From a virus (lineage: Duplodnaviria; Heunggongvirae; Uroviricota; Caudoviricetes): a stretch of 64,000 nucleotides of DNA. Both the position numbers and the translations under genes were made by a program. The notes under the pieces are model-generated. The model had not been told where the DNA came from. It made no database searches and saw nothing but the letters and a program-made list of their open reading frames with translations. The stretch lies in the IMG/VR virus record IMGVR_UViG_2585427757_000006; one strand, written 5' to 3'. Shown piece after piece: positions 34,830-44,440 of this stretch. Within the stretch, counting starts at the first letter, position 1. Every line of letters starts with the position of its first letter.

Positions 34830-37800
34830 TTAGTTACGTTGAGTGTTTGGGTTGAGTGATCCGCCAGGGCGTTTCTCTTGAGCGATAGTCTCAAGCGCGA
34901 TTGCTTTCATCCGTTGAGCGGCATTGTTCCATATGCTTTCTGTATCGCCGGATTCTGTCGTGCTACCGTCACTATGGACGTTGATCTCAATTGATACAGG
35001 AGAAAGAACATTTCCGCCTCCACTCATACCATCGGTACTGAGCGTTACAGGGATTGTTCGACCATCAGGCAATGGAACATACGCCTCATTCATATCGCCT
35101 TCCCCAAACAACGCCAATTGAGGTGAGTTAGCAATACCGCCTTTCTGGTATGCCCGGAGCGGGATCACGCCGTCTTTTCCGAATATTCCTCCATTTGCAA
35201 ACTTCGGGATTGCAGGAATGCCTTTAGTTCCGTCAGCCACACTGCTGGTTGCGGTTTTAGCAGAGCTTGATGTCACGCTGTCGAAACCACCGCCAGCCCA
35301 AGCTGAAACAAGACCAGATGCAACCGTTGCTCCAAAACTCAACCACTTATTACCAGAGCCGGAAGCATTAGCTCCAAGCATTGCAAACGCGGCAGACAGC
35401 GCGCCGGTAACAGAGCTGAGGTTCTGCATCGAGAAGATGGAGTCCTTCACGGCTTTTGTCTCGGCATCTTTGGCTTCAGTGCTATCAAATAGCCCCGATA
35501 CCCAGCTACCAATCGCATTTGTTGCAGTGCCAATTGCGCTGGTGGTCTGCTGTGTTGTTTGCCCCAATCCAGTTACCGAACTGGACGTCTCCTTCGTGGC
35601 TTCTCCTACCGACTTGTCGCCGTTAACAGTGTTGCCCATTCGTACCCCTTGATTGGCAACGGCGGAAGCAACCCCGGTCAGCAAATTACCACTCTGTGAA
35701 CTACCAGCTGCGGTGGTTCCCATCCCCAACATGTTCATTAGAGGCAGCGTGATCTGCGACTTCACGACCATATTGGTGATATCTTTCAAAATGGACTGAG
35801 ATAGGCTGGAGAAGCTCATCTTCCCGTTAATAACGAAATCAGTCAGGACATCAGTTAAGCCACTAAACAAATCAGTCCAGGTGCTTTCGATCTGCTCTGC
35901 CAGGTTTTCGTATTCCAGTGCCAACTTCTGCGTCGCAGTCCCCGTCTCTTTAATAAGCGCGGTATTGCCAGCAGCAATCAGTTGATTGATTTTCTTTGTA
36001 TAAAGCGCCACAACTTTAGGATCAGACGCCTTATCACGAAGTTCTATCAACGCTTTGAGATTGCGGTTGTAGGTGTCTTCGAAATCAGCAACTTTCTCTT
36101 CACGAGACGGCGTATAGCCAGCACTAATAATGGAATCCGCCTCCGGTGCCCAAGTGGAGATCATCTGCTCAACATTGCGGCGATTAAACATCTCGCGATA
36201 TTCAGGTGTCGCATTTTTGAGGTCTTCAAGACGTTTTTTCGCCTTGTCGATCATCTCTTGAGTGATGAACTCGTTAGGAACCGCATTAGCCAAATCCGTC
36301 AGCGATTTCGTTGTATCGCGTAGAGACTGATCAAACGATACCGTAGCCTTAGAGCTTTCACCCATTTGCCCCATAAGCTGATCGGCTTTATCCAGAGCCT
36401 TCTGGTATCCGGCTGCCAGTTTCTGTTGCGCTGCCTGTTCTTTCTTGGCCGCACGCTGCGAGGCATTAGCTGATCGTTGGGCTGCTTTCTCGGCGGCTGC
36501 GGCATCCTGTTCACGAGCTTTAGTCAGTGCGGCAATGGCTGCGGTACGCTCTTCATCGCTCATTTTCTCCAGAGAGCTGGCACTGGATGCTTTCTGCAAA
36601 TTAAGCTGCGTCTTGAGTTGTTTAGGCCCAATAATCGGCTTACCTTCGAAGTCCATCATCGGAGTGCCGTCAGGCAAAGTACGTTGATAAGTCGCAGAAT
36701 CCATCTGGTTTCGCATGTATTGCGCCAGCGCCTTCTGAGCAGCTTTATCAGTTGTACCTAACCCAAGAACAGTCCCCTGGTTTGACATTACGCCCTTACC
36801 AGTTTTGGCCGCGTTATCTCTCTCGAACTCTGCCTGAGTAAGTTCCTGAGCAACGGCTTCCAAATGCTCCTGATAACCACGAATACTGCCTTGCAGTTTC
36901 TGGATTTGCTCGGTATTGCCATCCTTTTTGGCTTTTTCAAGCTGATCATTAAGAGTCGCAATTTGCTTCTCGGTCGCATTCTTACGAGAAGAAAGTGAAT
37001 CAACCAGTTTTTGCGCAGGCTCCAGATAGCTTTTGTTTACCGTTTCACGTAACGGTGCCAATAGCTTGTTCTTTTCGTCATCTGAAAGTGAACCGTCATC
37101 ATTGATTTTCTGGATCTTATCCAGAGCCTCCTGCCGGGCTTTCACGAATGTTGCCGCGAAAATCTGGTTTTCCGCTCGAATTTTCTCAATCTGAGATTCG
37201 GCAGCCTCTTTAGCCAAACGCTTTGCTACAGCGCCGTCACCAAGAGCTATCGTGCCGGTTATCTTTTGATACTCTTCCTGATTTTTTTTCAGGCGTGCTT
37301 CGATGTCAGCCTTCGACTCTTTGTGAGTAATAACACCGGCAGAGTTAGATACGTAATTAACACCCTCACCAGTTTTTAATGCTCGTTGATCAGCAAGAAT
37401 CTGCTTTTCGAGCTTTTCTGCGCGGTCGGCCATTTGTGCACGTTTGGCCGCTGTCATCGCTTCTGGTATTTTCCTAATCTCGTCAACGACCTTTGAAGTT
37501 TCGCTGCGGAGCATGGTCATGTACGTGATTAGGCCAGCAACAGCTACAGTGGCAACTGTAAATGCTGCCCCTATAGGGTTTGCTACAATGAACGCCGTTA
37601 ATCCAGCAAAAGCGCCTTTAAGCCCCGTAATCGCCCCACGGATGGCGAAAATAAGAGAGGGGATCGGAGCCAGCCCCATACGTGCCGCACGATTGAATCG
37701 AGTTACTGCTGTAGCGCCGAGGTTAAATGGAGTCTGTATGGCGGTCGCCATCGTGGCAAAGGTGCTAACCATCTGGCTCCCAGCGCCAACTACCCCCATG

Positions 37801-39404
37801 ATCCCTGCTCGCATCAGTTTGAACGCAACCATCGCGGCCACGACCTTACCGAGATTAATTACCAGCTCTTGGTTCTTTGCTAACCATTGAGCAAGCTGAC
37901 GCAACCCATCGATTGCCGTTGTTAACCCCGAACCTAAAGAATTGGCAAACGAAATCCCTTCGGCGCTATTCATGATTGAAGCCAGTTCTTTCATCCCCTT
38001 CGATAGAGAATCCAGATATCCGGCCTGACCAACCCGATCAGCAAATAACGTGAATGACGTCTGAAGTTGCGCCAGCGCACCTGTGTAGGTTTGCATCATG
38101 TCTTTCGCTGCGTTCTCATTCTCCGCACGCAGACCAACAAACATCAGAGACAACGCCTGTTTTGCCTCAACCGTACCGCTGGCAACGGCTTTAGTCAGTT
38201 CCCCCATAGTGATGCCTGCGGCGTCTGCCATTGCCTGCATCGCGTTAGGAACGGCTTCACCTAATTGCTGACGTAGCTCTTCCATTGACACGACGCCCTT
38301 ACCGGACATCTGCTGAACGGCCACAGCCGCACGTTTCAACAGCTCACTATCACCACCAAAACGAGCAACGGAGTCCACCAGCGCCTTCAGAGAACCATCG
38401 GTTGGATCTAAGCCAGCAGAACGAAACTTCACGAAGGAGTCTGTTAACGCCTGCATCGCGAACGGCGCATTTTGAGCCATGTCTACGATGTACTTCATAT
38501 CATCAGCGGCAGCCTGGCCCGGGTTGGACTTCTCCTTATTCAACCCTCGAAGCATCACCCGCATACGTTCCATTTCGGCCGCAGCTTCAACAATAGGCTT
38601 CTGCCACCCAAACATGATGTCAGTAACCGTTCTGGCTGCATCTCCGATCTCGCCAAGCAGGAAAATGTTGCCACGAAGGCCAGAGAACATACCTTCTTCG
38701 TTACTTTTACCGCTATGGCCAGAAGCGCCGCTACGCCGCCCGCCACCACCATCGCCACTTCCAGATGTACGAACGCGTACCGGCTTGCTAATCAGTTGCT
38801 GACGTCCGATAACTTCGTCCATCTGCTCACGAACCTTTTTCAGTCCCTCGGCAGCCTGACTCGTTGTGACACCCCAATTACTGAGTCGCTTCGTCGTGGT
38901 ATTAAGGCGCGTATTCATGCCACTCACGGACGCAGAGGCTTCTTTGACCTCCGTACCAAAGCGGCTTGCGCTTTTGCTTGCATAGGTCGCCCAATCAGAG
39001 AAATCATTTAGCTCTGATTGCACTTTACGTAATGACGCGGTGAGTTTATCTACTGAAGAAGTTGTCGTATCGACGCGCTCAATCAGGGCTTTAAGACCAG
39101 AATTGAGGCTGGTGATGTTGCCACGCATTTTACGCGTAGCATCTGAAGCAAGCTCAAAACCGGCAGCTACATCCTGTAGTTTATCTGCCGTAGAATCGAG
39201 CTTGCTTTCCAGAACGCCAATGATACGGGCGACCGAACCCAAAGAGCGTTCAAAGGTTTGGATTTTTTGAGCAGGCTTTGTTACCTGCTCACCAAATCGA
39301 GTAAGCAGTTTCCCCGCACGATCGATTGACGCTGTAAACTGTTTGTCTTCCAGCGACAGGATAAACTCTACGTTTTGTGACATTCCCTTGTCATCCTCTG
39401 CCAA
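34830..39404 (-). CDS. tail tape measure protein
   Basis: 1524-aa ORF, helical/coiled-coil-rich with hydrophobic segments, downstream of G/T chaperones. Confidence 0.85.
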   Translation of the reverse strand: MAEDDKGMSQNVEFILSLEDKQFTASIDRAGKLLTRFGEQVTKPAQKIQTFERSLGSVARIIGVLESKLDSTADKLQDVAAGFELASDATRKMRGNITSLNSGLKALIERVDTTTSSVDKLTASLRKVQSELNDFSDWATYASKSASRFGTEVKEASASVSGMNTRLNTTTKRLSNWGVTTSQAAEGLKKVREQMDEVIGRQQLISKPVRVRTSGSGDGGGGRRSGASGHSGKSNEEGMFSGLRGNIFLLGEIGDAARTVTDIMFGWQKPIVEAAAEMERMRVMLRGLNKEKSNPGQAAADDMKYIVDMAQNAPFAMQALTDSFVKFRSAGLDPTDGSLKALVDSVARFGGDSELLKRAAVAVQQMSGKGVVSMEELRQQLGEAVPNAMQAMADAAGITMGELTKAVASGTVEAKQALSLMFVGLRAENENAAKDMMQTYTGALAQLQTSFTLFADRVGQAGYLDSLSKGMKELASIMNSAEGISFANSLGSGLTTAIDGLRQLAQWLAKNQELVINLGKVVAAMVAFKLMRAGIMGVVGAGSQMVSTFATMATAIQTPFNLGATAVTRFNRAARMGLAPIPSLIFAIRGAITGLKGAFAGLTAFIVANPIGAAFTVATVAVAGLITYMTMLRSETSKVVDEIRKIPEAMTAAKRAQMADRAEKLEKQILADQRALKTGEGVNYVSNSAGVITHKESKADIEARLKKNQEEYQKITGTIALGDGAVAKRLAKEAAESQIEKIRAENQIFAATFVKARQEALDKIQKINDDGSLSDDEKNKLLAPLRETVNKSYLEPAQKLVDSLSSRKNATEKQIATLNDQLEKAKKDGNTEQIQKLQGSIRGYQEHLEAVAQELTQAEFERDNAAKTGKGVMSNQGTVLGLGTTDKAAQKALAQYMRNQMDSATYQRTLPDGTPMMDFEGKPIIGPKQLKTQLNLQKASSASSLEKMSDEERTAAIAALTKAREQDAAAAEKAAQRSANASQRAAKKEQAAQQKLAAGYQKALDKADQLMGQMGESSKATVSFDQSLRDTTKSLTDLANAVPNEFITQEMIDKAKKRLEDLKNATPEYREMFNRRNVEQMISTWAPEADSIISAGYTPSREEKVADFEDTYNRNLKALIELRDKASDPKVVALYTKKINQLIAAGNTALIKETGTATQKLALEYENLAEQIESTWTDLFSGLTDVLTDFVINGKMSFSSLSQSILKDITNMVVKSQITLPLMNMLGMGTTAAGSSQSGNLLTGVASAVANQGVRMGNTVNGDKSVGEATKETSSSVTGLGQTTQQTTSAIGTATNAIGSWVSGLFDSTEAKDAETKAVKDSIFSMQNLSSVTGALSAAFAMLGANASGSGNKWLSFGATVASGLVSAWAGGGFDSVTSSSAKTATSSVADGTKGIPAIPKFANGGIFGKDGVIPLRAYQKGGIANSPQLALFGEGDMNEAYVPLPDGRTIPVTLSTDGMSGGGNVLSPVSIEINVHSDGSTTESGDTESIWNNAAQRMKAIALETIAQEKRPGGSLNPNTQRN

Positions 39405-39660
39405 ATATTTGCATCAGTTGCTCTTTGGCGTCAGGGTCTGCCTTATCCTGGCTTGGATCGTAGACTTTATCTGTTACGACTGGTCTTCCAATCCTGAGTT
39501 GCAAACCCTCCATGAACGCCTTCACAGCCTCGCCATCCGCCTGGGACGCACGAGCGACTTGTAAGTTGCGGACATCCTCTTCCGCACGCAGACGGTCTAT
39601 ATTGCGACTGAGCATCCAGAACATCGTGAGAGGAACGTTCAGTAGCTCTAATGGCGACAC
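39391..39660 (-). CDS. tail assembly chaperone T-like segment (probable -1 frameshift extension of G)
   Basis: Frame stays open upstream of the GTG start back into the 3' end of the G-like gene, in the -1 frame relative to G. Confidence 0.5.
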   Translation of the reverse strand: MSPLELLNVPLTMFWMLSRNIDRLRAEEDVRNLQVARASQADGEAVKAFMEGLQLRIGRPVVTDKVYDPSQDKADPDAKEQLMQIFGRG

Positions 39661-39740
39661 GGCGTAGTGAGCAACTACACGACTGAAATAGAATCCGAGA
39701 TCTATTGAGACGGTCCTTGTCCCGGATTCATCGCGGGAAA

Positions 39741-40058
39741 TTACTTTGCCCCTTCGCCAGCCGCTTTTTCGTTTTCTTCATCAATCACTTCCATAGCGAA
39801 GGTGAAGATCTGCTGGAGTTGCGGAACGGTCAGTTTTTCAAGAACTTCATCAGGTACTGAAGGGATAACCTTACGAACCAGATCTGCATAAGCTGTCACT
39901 TGCTCAACAGGAGACATGTTCATGAGATCTTTGCCTTCCATCTGCTTGATGGAAACGAACAGACCTACCGTCATTTCAACGATGGGATATTCCTGACCGC
40001 CAAATTTGATGCTTTTCTTCGGAGGCAGAATGGAATCTAGATCGAGTAATTTGGTCAT
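39741..40058 (-). CDS. tail assembly chaperone G-like
   Basis: 105-aa acidic protein between major tail and tape measure genes. Confidence 0.6.
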   Translation of the reverse strand: MTKLLDLDSILPPKKSIKFGGQEYPIVEMTVGLFVSIKQMEGKDLMNMSPVEQVTAYADLVRKVIPSVPDEVLEKLTVPQLQQIFTFAMEVIDEENEKAAGEGAK

Positions 40059-40113
40059 TGGTTAAAATCCTTTTAAAAGAGAGGCCCATCCTGAGCCTCT
40101 GCTTAATTACTGA

Positions 40114-40896
40114 TTAATCTGCGGGGTTAATCGTTACTGACTTAGTTGCCTTCTTACCACCGCTATTGCTGGTGAAGGAGATATTTGTAGAACCCTGCGC
40201 CACACCACGTACCAGACCCGTTTGATCTACCGTGGCCTTTTTCTGGTCTTCGGATTCCCAAACACCGGTTTTGTCTGCGGCATCAGCTGGAGTGATTTCG
40301 GCTGTCAGTTGCACAGTCTCCCCTGCTTTTACAGTTGGAGATTCCTGTTTGATCGACACGGTTTTTACCGGTTTAGGACCGCTCATTTTGCCCAGAACGC
40401 CTTCATCATCCGGGTATGCGCTGAACTGAACAGAGAACACACGAACATCATCAGACTGGTAGGTCATAGTGAAGTTGCCCGCGGTTGCCGCTTTCGGGAT
40501 GGTCAACACATAGTCGGTGGTGTCCTGCGGAGTCAGAACCAGCTCCTTCGCCACATCAATCAGGTTAACGCCCTGTGCAGATGTGATCGTGACAGAGCTG
40601 TCATCTTCGCTCAGAGTAGAACCAGGCATCAGGTCAACCATGTTTTGGAGTACAGACTCAGCCAGAGGCGCGGTGATGGTAATGTTGCGCCCCTGAACTA
40701 ATTCGGAAATTACGGTCTGCCCCAACTGATCGACGGTGACTTTCAGCGTTTCAGTGGCTACTTCAACCTGAACACCACCTTTGGTGTAACCCAAATCCAC
40801 ACCACCAAACGACACCTTACAGGCACCAAGTTTGATGTTTTTTACATGGGTATTAGACATTGATGGAAAACTCCTTTTTCCGTTAATTCTACGCAT
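40114..40896 (-). CDS. major tail protein with C-terminal Ig-like (Big_2) domain
   Basis: 260-aa ORF; C-terminal ...TVQLTAEITPADAADKTGVWESEDQKKATVDQTGLVRGVAQGSTNISF... Big_2-like; true start possibly internal Met (about 40860). Confidence 0.75.
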   Translation of the reverse strand: MRRINGKRSFPSMSNTHVKNIKLGACKVSFGGVDLGYTKGGVQVEVATETLKVTVDQLGQTVISELVQGRNITITAPLAESVLQNMVDLMPGSTLSEDDSSVTITSAQGVNLIDVAKELVLTPQDTTDYVLTIPKAATAGNFTMTYQSDDVRVFSVQFSAYPDDEGVLGKMSGPKPVKTVSIKQESPTVKAGETVQLTAEITPADAADKTGVWESEDQKKATVDQTGLVRGVAQGSTNISFTSNSGGKKATKSVTINPAD

Positions 40897-43519: not shown

Positions 43520-44440
43520 TTATTCCTGTGCGGCAGTGACCTCTACGGTCGCTGTCGCTTTGTGGCTACCATCTTGGGTAGTAACCTCGATTGTGGCAGT
43601 ACCAGCCGCAACACCAGTTACAACACCGGTTTCGCTGTCCACCGTTGCAAACTCGGTATTTTTAGATTCCCAAGTAACGGTTTTATTTGTGGCTCCTGCC
43701 GGCTCGACATTTGCGGTCAGCTGAACAGTTTTGCTTGCCTCAACGGTTGTGCTATTTGGGTCGATTTCGACGCCTGTAACAGCCACAACAGGCGCAGTTA
43801 CTTCCACCGTTGCAGTTGCCTTTTTGCTACCATCTTGGGAAACGATCTCAATCGTCGCAGTGCCAACTTCTACACCAGTTACGTTCCCGCTCTGGTCTAC
43901 CGTTGCCTTATCTTCATTTTTGGAAGACCAGGTAACAGCCTTATTCGTCGCATTTGACGGCTGAACATTCGCTTTCAGACTGACTGATTTCCCTTTCTCA
44001 ACAGACGTTGATTCTGGCGTTACCGTTACGGATTGAACGGCTACCGGATTTACGGTGACTTCCACTGAAGCGGAAAGCTGGGTTTCCTGATCAGTTGCAG
44101 TAATTTTTACTTTGCCTGGGGCTACGCCAGTTACTAATCCAGTGCCGTTAACGGTTGCAATTTGATCATTGGCTGACTTCCAGGTAAATGAACTGGCACT
44201 CTTACCCATACTAATACCTGCACTAAGTTGAACAGTTTTCCCAACCAAAACTGATGGTGAAGCCGGAGTTATGTTTACGGATTGGGAGAAGGGAACCGCC
44301 TGCAAACAAGCAGATAGCTGACTTTGTTGCCGCTCGGTTAAAGGTTCATCGGAGATAGAATTGGTAAATCCGGCGCGGCACATATGCCCCGTAAAATCCG
44401 AAAATGCCTCTTCCGTAATCTTCATCTTTTGTTCTGGCAT
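43520..44440 (-). CDS. capsid decoration-like protein with three tandem Ig-like (Big_2) domains
   Basis: 306-aa ORF; three repeats of ...TVQLSA/TANV.P..ATNK.VTW.SKN...ATVD..G.VTGV..GTATI...; immediately downstream of major capsid gene. Confidence 0.65.
   Translation of the reverse strand: MPEQKMKITEEAFSDFTGHMCRAGFTNSISDEPLTERQQSQLSACLQAVPFSQSVNITPASPSVLVGKTVQLSAGISMGKSASSFTWKSANDQIATVNGTGLVTGVAPGKVKITATDQETQLSASVEVTVNPVAVQSVTVTPESTSVEKGKSVSLKANVQPSNATNKAVTWSSKNEDKATVDQSGNVTGVEVGTATIEIVSQDGSKKATATVEVTAPVVAVTGVEIDPNSTTVEASKTVQLTANVEPAGATNKTVTWESKNTEFATVDSETGVVTGVAAGTATIEVTTQDGSHKATATVEVTAAQE

What the first reader, a model, noticed from the sequence alone, without database searches (positions are those of the whole stretch)
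39391..40058. Probable G/GT-type programmed -1 frameshift without a canonical slippery heptamer
The T-like frame is open from just after codon GAT-GAA of G (after two TGA stops) through the G stop, in the -1 frame. The only slippage-prone sequence in the window is GAAAAAG, not the lambda-type G GGA AAG.
Basis: partly seen in the sequence, partly recalled or inferred. Interest (0 to 1): 0.35.

Follow-up and report, generated by a model that had tools for sequence, protein, structure and literature searches.

The report
Unannotated tail-chaperone frameshift, different slip site

Summary
The genes lie on the minus strand: tail tube with Ig domain (40896-40114), G-like chaperone (40058-39741), a -1-frame ORF open from 39777 to 39391, then the tape measure gene. 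Its proposed slip site, GAAAAAG (39770-39764), fails comparison with relatives. It is absent in divergent relatives. In 45 of 106 loci a -1-frame TGA lies between it and the G stop.

G(C/U)A_AAG + UAR ends G in every SSU5-clade locus examined (105). The T-frame peptide (KVISRDESG...IDLGFYF...) is conserved from the first codon after that point. There is no start codon before GTG 39660, and that GTG is itself not conserved.

Remote family members carry canonical heptamers (G_GGA_AAG, G_GGA_AAA, G_GGA_AAC, A_AAA_AAG) zero to three codons before the G stop. Synonymous-site variation collapses at the junction. A conserved stem-loop starts 8 nt downstream.

Best reading: a G/GT -1 frameshift on a degenerate hexamer, with tRNA-Lys slipping from AAG to AAA, giving a 222-aa GT protein. 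All public records checked call the two ORFs hypothetical proteins. This is a new member of a known kind, of modest interest.

The parts
40114..40896 (-). Major tail (tube) protein with a C-terminal Big_2 Ig-like domain, fused in frame. This is the upstream neighbour of G.
   Evidence: ORF of 260 aa; Pfam Big_2 E 1e-24 and PHROG major-tail/Ig families; annotated 'Tail protein' in phage Cyrano.
39741..40058 (-). G-like tail assembly chaperone gene (105 aa, 11.7 kDa), including stop TAA at 39743-39741.
   Evidence: phrog_893, E 4.5e-49. AlphaFold model (pLDDT 71.5) matches BFVD entries named 'Tail assembly chaperone' (top E 2.8e-4, TM 0.67). It sits between the tube gene and the tape measure gene.
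39764..39770 (-). Judged not to be the programmed site.
   Evidence: Absent in divergent relatives; separated from the G stop by a -1-frame TGA in 45 of 106 loci.
39744..39749 (-). Proposed shift site GCA_AAG: P-site codon GCA at 39749-39747, A_AAG tetramer at 39747-39744. tRNA-Lys re-pairs from AAG to AAA.
   Evidence: G(C/U)A_AAG followed by UAR ends G in all 105 SSU5-clade loci examined. It is the only conserved slippery motif inside the 3-4 codons left open by -1-frame stops. Synonymous diversity is at its minimum (0.07-0.13) at exactly this point.
39391..39744 (-). T-specific part of GT, read in the -1 frame from GTA (39744-39742) to TGA (39393-39391). This is 117 codons. The predicted GT product is 222 aa, 24.8 kDa.
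   Evidence: Translation. phrog_1131 matches only the part annotated in other phages. Third-position bias of substitutions upstream of GTG 39660 is 7/3/15 variable columns. Indels are in frame. D16 and F19 of the T frame are invariant upstream of GTG 39660.
39678..39735 (-). Predicted bipartite stem-loop, a candidate 3' stimulator. H1 is CGCGAU (39735-39730) paired with GUCGUG (39683-39678). H2 is GAAUCCGGGAC (39729-39719) paired with GAUCUCGGAUUC (39702-39691). H1 starts 8 nt after AAG.
   Evidence: MFE folds of the window and of relatives. RNAalifold consensus. 92-99% of cells paired against at most 62% in slid controls, and 2-3 pairs with compensatory change. Synonymous-site troughs fall on the arms and a peak on the loop. 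H1 is broken in 5 of 18 sequences.
34830..39383 (-). Tape measure protein gene. The start is most likely ATG 39383, 7 nt after the T stop. This is the downstream neighbour.
   Evidence: ORF list; annotated as tape measure in Cyrano, SSU5 and RefSeq E. coli plasmids; Pfam TMP_3 and Tape_meas_lam_C on homologues.

Best explanation
This is the tail assembly chaperone pair of an SSU5-like siphovirus phage-plasmid. It is expressed as G (105 aa) and, from a minority of ribosomes, as a G-T fusion (222 aa) by programmed -1 ribosomal frameshifting. The shift happens on the last sense codon of G. With GCA in the P site and AAG in the A site (or AAG in the P site over the stop), tRNA-Lys re-pairs from AAG to the overlapping AAA. 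Translation then continues with GUA AUU UCC..., so the junction reads ...EGAK-VISRDESG.... The motif is a degenerate hexamer (NNA_AAG type) and not an X_XXY_YYZ heptamer. Because such tetramers are barely shifty alone, the conserved stem-loop that starts 8 nt downstream is the likely stimulator. Shown here: the ORF geometry, conservation of the site, coding signal in the T frame immediately after the site, absence of a conserved start codon, and canonical heptamers at the same place in remote homologues. Inferred: that slippage actually occurs, its efficiency, the role of the hairpin, and the chaperone functions of G and T by analogy with lambda.
For: 1. Synteny is tube - G - T - tape measure.
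2. G is TAC-like by fold: BFVD 'Tail assembly chaperone' hits, top E 2.8e-4. Two of 60 family members weakly hit Pfam Phage_TAC_7.
3. In SSU5 and in many other relatives a -1-frame TGA restricts the usable overlap to the last 3-4 codons, GAN GNN G(C/U)A AAG.
4. G(C/U)A_AAG_UAR ends G in all 105 SSU5-clade loci examined (about 27 distinct contexts), down to 38% G identity.
5. The T-frame peptide is conserved from the first post-shift codon. Substitutions are biased to third positions (7/3/15). Indels are multiples of 3.
6. GTG 39660 is not conserved, no SD-like sequence is visible upstream of it (read from the sequence), and the invariant IDxGF motif lies upstream of it.
7. Remote phrog_893 members carry G_GGA_AAG, G_GGA_AAA, G_GGA_AAC or A_AAA_AAG at 0-3 codons from the G stop, with a homologous T in the -1 frame.
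8. Synonymous diversity falls from about 0.5 to 0.07-0.13 at fusion codons 104-108.
9. A conserved stem-loop lies downstream, with some covariation.
10. Literature: A_AAG is by far the most -1-shift-prone tetramer in E. coli but needs a 3' stimulator (0.15% without one, up to 5.6% with the IS3 pseudoknot; PMC4066793). NNA_AAG hexamers are used by IS1222 and in B. subtilis cdd, and their efficiency depends on the wobble propensity of the P-site tRNA (PMC5009743).
Against: There is no experimental evidence for a fusion protein in this family. No public record annotates slippage, and no natural in-frame G-T fusion was found. The motif lacks P-site re-pairing potential, so efficiency may be low. 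The core helix H2 starts 14 nt after AAG. Only the less conserved H1, broken in 5 of 18 sequences, gives the classical 8-nt spacer. The 82-nt fold is not more stable than shuffles (z -0.73). Covariation is modest and the region is coding, so the RNA constraint cannot be fully separated from protein constraint. PDB fold searches gave no convincing TAC hit. There is no sequence similarity to lambda gpG.
Confidence: 0.8

Rival explanations
1. The -1 shift happens at GAA_AAA_G (39770-39764). tRNA-Lys would slip on A_AAA and give ...ENEK-SGWRRGKVISRDE....
For: In this window and its closest relatives the -1 frame is open from 39777, so such a shift would be productive here. A run of five A is mildly slippery.
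Against: The motif is absent in relatives at 60-72% G identity, which read GAA GCC GC.... In 45 of 106 loci, SSU5 included, a TGA in the -1 frame lies downstream of it. A_AAA is among the weakest active tetramers (PMC4066793). The hairpin is 28 nt or more away. In the overlap, variation falls on G-frame third positions, so the -1 frame is not under coding constraint there. The one database protein with this junction (P0003) comes from a single metagenome contig; I read it as a homopolymer sequencing error, which was not checked.
Confidence: 0.05
2. T is an independent protein started at GTG 39660 or at a downstream ATG, as all current annotations assume. No fusion is made.
For: Gene callers and depositors annotate a separate 75-108 aa ORF. 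The phrog_1131 profile begins near that point.
Against: GTG 39660 is GTA, GTC or ATT in relatives. No SD-like sequence is visible before GTG 39660 or ATG 39633 (read from the sequence). The 28 codons upstream are under purifying selection in the T frame and hold invariant residues D16 and F19. Remote homologues have canonical heptamers at the G end.
Confidence: 0.07
3. Termination-reinitiation: ribosomes that terminate at UAA restart nearby in the T frame and make a separate, longer T protein without a fusion.
For: The T-frame conservation begins right at the G stop. Coupled reinitiation is common in phage operons.
Against: The T frame has no AUG, GUG or UUG within 28 codons after the stop. 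The nearby codons GUA AUU or GUA GUU are not conserved as any start type. The invariant A_AAG and the canonical heptamers in remote relatives are unexplained by this model.
Confidence: 0.03

Closest known systems
Phage lambda G / G-T tail assembly chaperones (programmed -1 frameshift at G_GGA_AAG; Levin et al. 1993; Xu, Hendrix and Duda 2004, 2013, 2014, as summarised in PMC5009743)
   Same: Two small ORFs between the major tail gene and the tape measure gene. The second is in the -1 frame, overlaps the 3' end of the first and has no start of its own. The slip involves tRNA-Lys at an A_AAG near the end of G. Remote members of this protein family use exactly G_GGA_AAG.
   Different: There is no detectable sequence similarity to lambda gpG or gpT. 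The motif here is GCA_AAG with no P-site re-pairing. It abuts the stop codon, whereas in lambda five codons follow the site. A conserved downstream stem-loop is predicted here. From my own recollection, the lambda shift is reported to need no such structure.
Hexanucleotide/tetranucleotide A_AAG -1 frameshift signals: IS1222 (G_CGA_AAG), IS3 (C_CA A_AAG plus pseudoknot), B. subtilis cdd (A_CGA_AAG)
   Same: Single-tRNA slippage of tRNA-Lys from AAG to AAA, preceded by an NNA codon. It depends on a 3' stimulator, and the zero-frame stop is nearby (PMC5009743, PMC4066793).
   Different: The host gene is a phage tail chaperone and not a transposase. The P-site codon is GCA or GUA and not CGA or CCA. 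The stimulator here is a predicted bipartite hairpin and not a demonstrated pseudoknot. Nothing has been measured.
Ig-like domains added to phage structural proteins by programmed frameshifts (Fraser et al. 2006, from my own knowledge)
   Same: In sister clades of this phage the tube gene ends C_CCA_AAG_UAR and the Big_2 domain follows in the -1 frame. This is the same 'XXA_AAG + stop' layout as at the G/T junction.
   Different: In the window itself the tube and Big_2 parts are fused in frame, so this second recoding event is not present here.

Membership tests
G/GT-type tail assembly chaperone frameshift (functional class of Xu, Hendrix and Duda 2004) | Two small ORFs located between the major tail protein gene and the tape measure gene | tested here: met
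   Tube+Big_2 40896-40114, G 40058-39741, T frame to 39391, TMP from 39383. The order is the same in Cyrano, SSU5, Klebsiella, Photorhabdus and Raoultella relatives.
G/GT-type tail assembly chaperone frameshift (functional class of Xu, Hendrix and Duda 2004) | The downstream ORF is in the -1 frame, overlaps the 3' end of G, and has no conserved start codon or RBS of its own | tested here: met
   The -1 frame is open from 39777. The first start codon is GTG 39660, which is not conserved. Coding signal and invariant residues lie upstream of it. The absence of an SD-like sequence was judged by eye from the sequence.
G/GT-type tail assembly chaperone frameshift (functional class of Xu, Hendrix and Duda 2004) | A canonical X_XXY_YYZ slippery heptamer in the overlap | tested here: not met
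   There is no heptamer in 39777-39744, only GCA_AAG. Canonical heptamers are present in remote family members L102, L103, L108 and L109. The class is known to include non-canonical sites, so this lowers 'canonical member' and not 'works like one'.
G/GT-type tail assembly chaperone frameshift (functional class of Xu, Hendrix and Duda 2004) | G has the tail-assembly-chaperone fold | tested here: inconclusive
G/GT-type tail assembly chaperone frameshift (functional class of Xu, Hendrix and Duda 2004) | G and GT are both made, at a fixed low GT:G ratio, and both are needed for tail assembly | not testable with these tools
   This needs protein detection and genetics.
Lambda gpG / gpT sequence families (Pfam tail-chaperone and Phage_tail_T models) | Significant sequence match to the family profiles or to lambda gpG | tested here: not met
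   No Pfam hit for G or T at E<=1 apart from noise. hhalign of the G family against lambda gpG gives probability 0.7%. Only 2 of 60 remote members hit Phage_TAC_7, weakly at E 0.002.
A_AAG tetramer / NNA_AAG hexamer -1 frameshift signals (IS1222, IS3, cdd) | A_AAG in the zero-frame register Z_ZZN, with the -1 frame open across it | tested here: met
   GCA AAG at 39749-39744; the -1 frame reads ..GGC AAA GUA..; conserved in all 105 SSU5-clade loci.
A_AAG tetramer / NNA_AAG hexamer -1 frameshift signals (IS1222, IS3, cdd) | A 3' stimulatory RNA structure about 5-9 nt downstream | tested here: inconclusive
   The predicted stem-loop starts 8 nt after AAG (H1) or 14 nt after it (H2). 92-99% of cells are paired and 2-3 pairs covary. 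H1 is broken in 5 of 18 sequences and the fold is not more stable than shuffles. There is no Rfam match.
A_AAG tetramer / NNA_AAG hexamer -1 frameshift signals (IS1222, IS3, cdd) | Measured -1 frameshifting that depends on the motif | not testable with these tools
   This needs a reporter assay.

The most novel reading that the evidence does not exclude
The SSU5 clade has replaced the ancestral canonical heptamer, still present in remote family members, by a bare A_AAG that abuts the G stop codon. The G:GT ratio would then be set by a conserved bipartite 3' stem-loop, and possibly by competition with release factor at the adjacent stop. The same 'XXA_AAG + stop' cassette is reused in sister clades to attach the Ig domain to the tube protein. 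On this reading, a stop-adjacent single-tRNA slip cassette would be a modular dosage device in this phage lineage.
Probability: 0.2. Interest if true: 0.45.

Novelty: new member of a known kind. Interest (0 to 1): 0.3.

Why it matters
SSU5-like phage-plasmids are widespread. This exact G-T region is on a plasmid in 232 of 5426 complete E. coli genomes. Relatives were found in Salmonella phage SSU5, Klebsiella phages and plasmids, a Yersinia pestis contig (pMT1-like, by my reading), Kluyvera, Photorhabdus and Raoultella. In every record checked the two genes are 'hypothetical protein', and the T ORF is truncated at an arbitrary internal start. Recognising the G/GT frameshift and its true site corrects the annotation of an essential tail-assembly gene. 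It gives a natural phage example of an NNA_AAG-type signal.

Tried and rejected
1. Pfam scans of G and T gave nothing useful.
3. hhalign of the G family against lambda gpG found no relationship.
4. A search for natural or annotated G-T fusion proteins returned only chimeric or apparently error-containing ORFs. One, P0003, has a junction that fits a 1-nt deletion inside GAAAAAG.
5. The search for related loci with the remote-homologue alignment failed because there was no conserved block. Four single remote queries found nothing in IMG/VR.
6. The genome-contig scan returned only 7 loci.
7. The Rfam scan of 39300-40200 found no family.
8. An SD-like upstream stimulator was considered. GGUGA lies 6 nt upstream of A_AAG in many relatives, but it is GGCGA in the window and is not conserved, so it was rejected.
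9. Transcriptional slippage was considered and rejected. The A-runs are only 3 and 5 nt long, and the longer one is blocked by the downstream TGA in relatives.
10. A 'shifty stop' as an essential element was weakened, because remote members place the heptamer 1-3 codons before the stop.
11. The Licznar et al. 2003 paper could not be retrieved. Its content is cited only through the review PMC5009743.
Full report
**What is there**

All relevant genes are on the minus strand.
- An ORF of 260 aa (40896-40114) is a tail tube protein with a C-terminal Big_2 Ig-like domain (Pfam E 1e-24; PHROG tail families).
- Next comes a 105-aa ORF, 40058-39741, here called G (phrog_893, E 4.5e-49).
- Then comes an ORF in the -1 frame. 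After TGA TGA at 39783-39778 it is open from 39777 to TGA 39393-39391. Its first ATG/GTG/TTG is GTG 39660.
- Seven nucleotides further on, the 1.5-kaa tape measure gene starts at ATG 39383.
- GAAAAAG is at 39770-39764, and there is no G_GGA_AAG.

It missed that the last two codons of G are GCA AAG (39749-39744), followed by TAA.

**Where the window comes from**

The region is 99-100% identical to E. coli phage-plasmids: CMS-2020a, Cyrano of strain LF82, and plasmid NZ_CP115378. It is 86% identical to Salmonella phage SSU5 and 81% identical to Klebsiella phage-plasmids.

It occurs in 232 of 5426 complete E. coli genomes, always on a plasmid. In every record inspected the two ORFs are 'hypothetical protein' and no slippage is annotated. 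Full-text searches found no paper describing a frameshift in this group.

**Locating the shift by comparison**

I collected 109 loci, 108 of them relatives and one the lambda reference. They came from IMG/VR, GTDB genomes, annotated phage records and metagenome or genome contigs.

Three results decide the site.
1. GAAAAAG is not conserved. Relatives with 60-72% G identity read GAA GCC GC.... In 45 of 106 loci, among them SSU5 and the Yersinia pestis and Kluyvera sequences, the codons GGT GAA create a -1-frame TGA between GAAAAAG and the G stop. In those genomes only the last 3-4 codons of G (GAN GNN G(C/U)A AAG) overlap an open -1 frame.
2. G(C/U)A_AAG followed by UAA or UAG ends G in every SSU5-clade locus (97 GCA, 8 GUA). 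This holds down to 38% and 48% G identity (L105 and L106).
3. The -1-frame peptide is conserved from the very first codon after AAG (K-V-I/V-S/T-R-D/E-E-S/A-G ... S-I-D-L/F-G-F-Y-F). Between the G stop and GTG 39660, variable columns fall 7/3/15 on T-frame codon positions 1/2/3, the same pattern as in the annotated part of T. Indels there are 3 nt long.

GTG 39660 itself is GTA, GTC or ATT in relatives. Two of the eight residues that are invariant across the whole T family (D16 and F19, in the IDxGF motif) lie upstream of it. In the overlap upstream of the site, variation sits on G-frame third positions, so the -1 frame is not constrained there.

**Remote family members**

An exhaustive HMM search with the G alignment found 433 homologues, and all 60 that were scanned belong to phrog_893. 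Four remote loci (about 30% identity to G) have a homologous T in the -1 frame and a canonical heptamer at the end of G:
- G_GGA_AAC_UGA in L102;
- A_AAA_AAG_UAA in L103;
- G_GGA_AAA, three codons before the stop, in L108;
- G_GGA_AAG, one codon before the stop, in L109.

The family is thus a normal lambda-style G/GT family. The SSU5 clade carries a degenerate version in which only the A_AAG half survives.

**Signals at the RNA level**

I made a codon-aware comparison of 18 diverse G-T sequences.
- Synonymous diversity is about 0.5 over the body of G.
- It falls to 0.07-0.13 in the 9-codon windows centred on fusion codons 104-108 (A K | V I S).
- It rises to 0.52-0.59 at codons 114-118.
- It dips again to 0.27-0.37 at codons 121-134.

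This pattern matches a predicted bipartite stem-loop.
- H1 is CGCGAU (39735-39730) paired with GUCGUG (39683-39678).
- H2 is GAAUCCGGGAC (39729-39719) paired with GAUCUCGGAUUC (39702-39691).
- The variable loop lies between the H2 arms.
- H1 begins 8 nt after AAG, and H2 begins 14 nt after it.

On the 18-sequence alignment, 92-99% of cells are paired against at most 62% when the partners are slid. Two or three pairs show compensatory change, for example U-A to G-C in Photorhabdus.

There are caveats. H1 is broken in 5 of 18 sequences (the Raoultella-type clade). The window's 82-nt fold is not more stable than shuffles (z -0.73). The region is coding, so protein constraint is mixed in. No Rfam family matches.

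**Mechanism proposed**

tRNA-Lys decoding AAG re-pairs with the overlapping AAA, the next codon read is GUA, and the product is ...AAGEGAK-VISRDESGTRTVSIDLGFYF..., 222 aa and 24.8 kDa.

The literature fits this.
- The minimal -1 motif is Z_ZZN.
- A_AAG is by far the best tetramer in E. coli, but it is barely above background alone (0.147% against 0.112%) and reaches up to 5.6% with a 3' pseudoknot (PMC4066793).
- NNA_AAG hexamers are used by IS1222 and occur in B. subtilis cdd. Their efficiency rises when the P-site tRNA has high wobble propensity (PMC5009743).
- From my own knowledge, GCA and GUA are read in E. coli by cmo5U34 tRNAs, which would fit that rule. I could not retrieve the primary paper.

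The need of A_AAG for a stimulator makes the conserved stem-loop a plausible functional part, but this step is inferred.

**Is G a tail assembly chaperone?**

Its position says yes. An AlphaFold model (pLDDT 71.5) matches BFVD entries named 'Tail assembly chaperone' (top E 2.8e-4, TM 0.67; several more in the top 50). PDB searches gave nothing convincing. There is no sequence similarity to lambda gpG and no Pfam hit.

I therefore file it in the functional class and not in the lambda sequence families. In lambda the site G_GGA_AAG is followed by five more codons before the stop, whereas here the site abuts the stop.

**Rivals**

- A shift at GAAAAAG could occur adventitiously in this particular genome, but it cannot be the conserved mechanism.
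- Independent initiation at GTG 39660 is contradicted by the lack of conservation, by the absence of a visible SD-like sequence (read), and by the coding signal upstream.
- Termination-reinitiation lacks any start-like codon near the stop.
- No natural in-frame fusions were found. The few 'fusion' proteins in the databases look like sequencing or assembly artefacts.

**Verdict**

The finding is real and the general interpretation is right, but the slip site is wrong. It is an ordinary G/GT frameshift with a degenerate hexamer motif. It is unannotated in a widespread phage-plasmid family, so it is a new member of a known kind, of modest interest.

Noticed in passing
L086:1685-1700 (also L087, L089, L090, L099, L101, L104); the window equivalent is 40896-40114: In the Raoultella-type sister clade the tube gene (163 aa) ends GCC_CCA_AAG_UAR, a canonical C_CCA_AAG heptamer abutting the stop. 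The Big_2 Ig-like domain continues in the -1 frame (..PK-VKVTGVTV..). This looks like a second programmed -1 frameshift that adds the Ig domain. In the window the two parts are fused in frame into one 260-aa protein.
   Followed up: partly
window 40101-40066, minus strand, between the tube stop and the G start: A GC-rich hairpin AGAGGCTCAGGATGGGCCTCT followed by CTTTTAAAA lies between the tube gene and G. It is present in all relatives, with changes that look compensatory (for example GAGGCCCATGGATGGGCCTC in Klebsiella). It may be an attenuating terminator that lowers G/T/TMP expression relative to the tube protein. The simple terminator scan did not call it.
   Followed up: partly
protein P0003 (ENA metagenome, 139 aa): A database protein reads ...EENEK-SGWRRGKVISRDESG.... 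This is exactly the product expected from a -1 shift at GAAAAAG. It comes from a single contig. I read it as a 1-nt homopolymer error and not as biology, but this was not checked.
   Followed up: partly
window 39383-39404: The mechanical ORF list starts the tape measure ORF at TTG 39404, overlapping the end of T. Relatives are annotated from the ATG at 39383, 7 nt after the T stop and preceded by AAGGGA. This suggests translational coupling of TMP to T/GT.
   Followed up: no
T-frame codons about 176-185 and 198-215 of the fusion (window about 39535-39505 and 39470-39415): Two further troughs of synonymous-site diversity (0.23-0.35 against about 0.55) occur inside T, well away from the shift site. 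No explanation was sought.
   Followed up: no
window 43520-44440, minus strand: A 306-aa ORF made largely of three Big_2-like repeats (..VTV.P.S..V..GK.V.L.A.V.P..ATNK.VTW.S...) lies just downstream of the probable major capsid gene. It may be a head decoration protein with Ig domains.
   Followed up: no
whole window; The window is part of a ~110-kb SSU5-like phage-plasmid. The G-T region is 100% identical to E. coli plasmid NZ_CP115378.1. The same G-T region is found on plasmids in 232 of 5426 complete E. coli genomes and never on a chromosome.
   Followed up: yes
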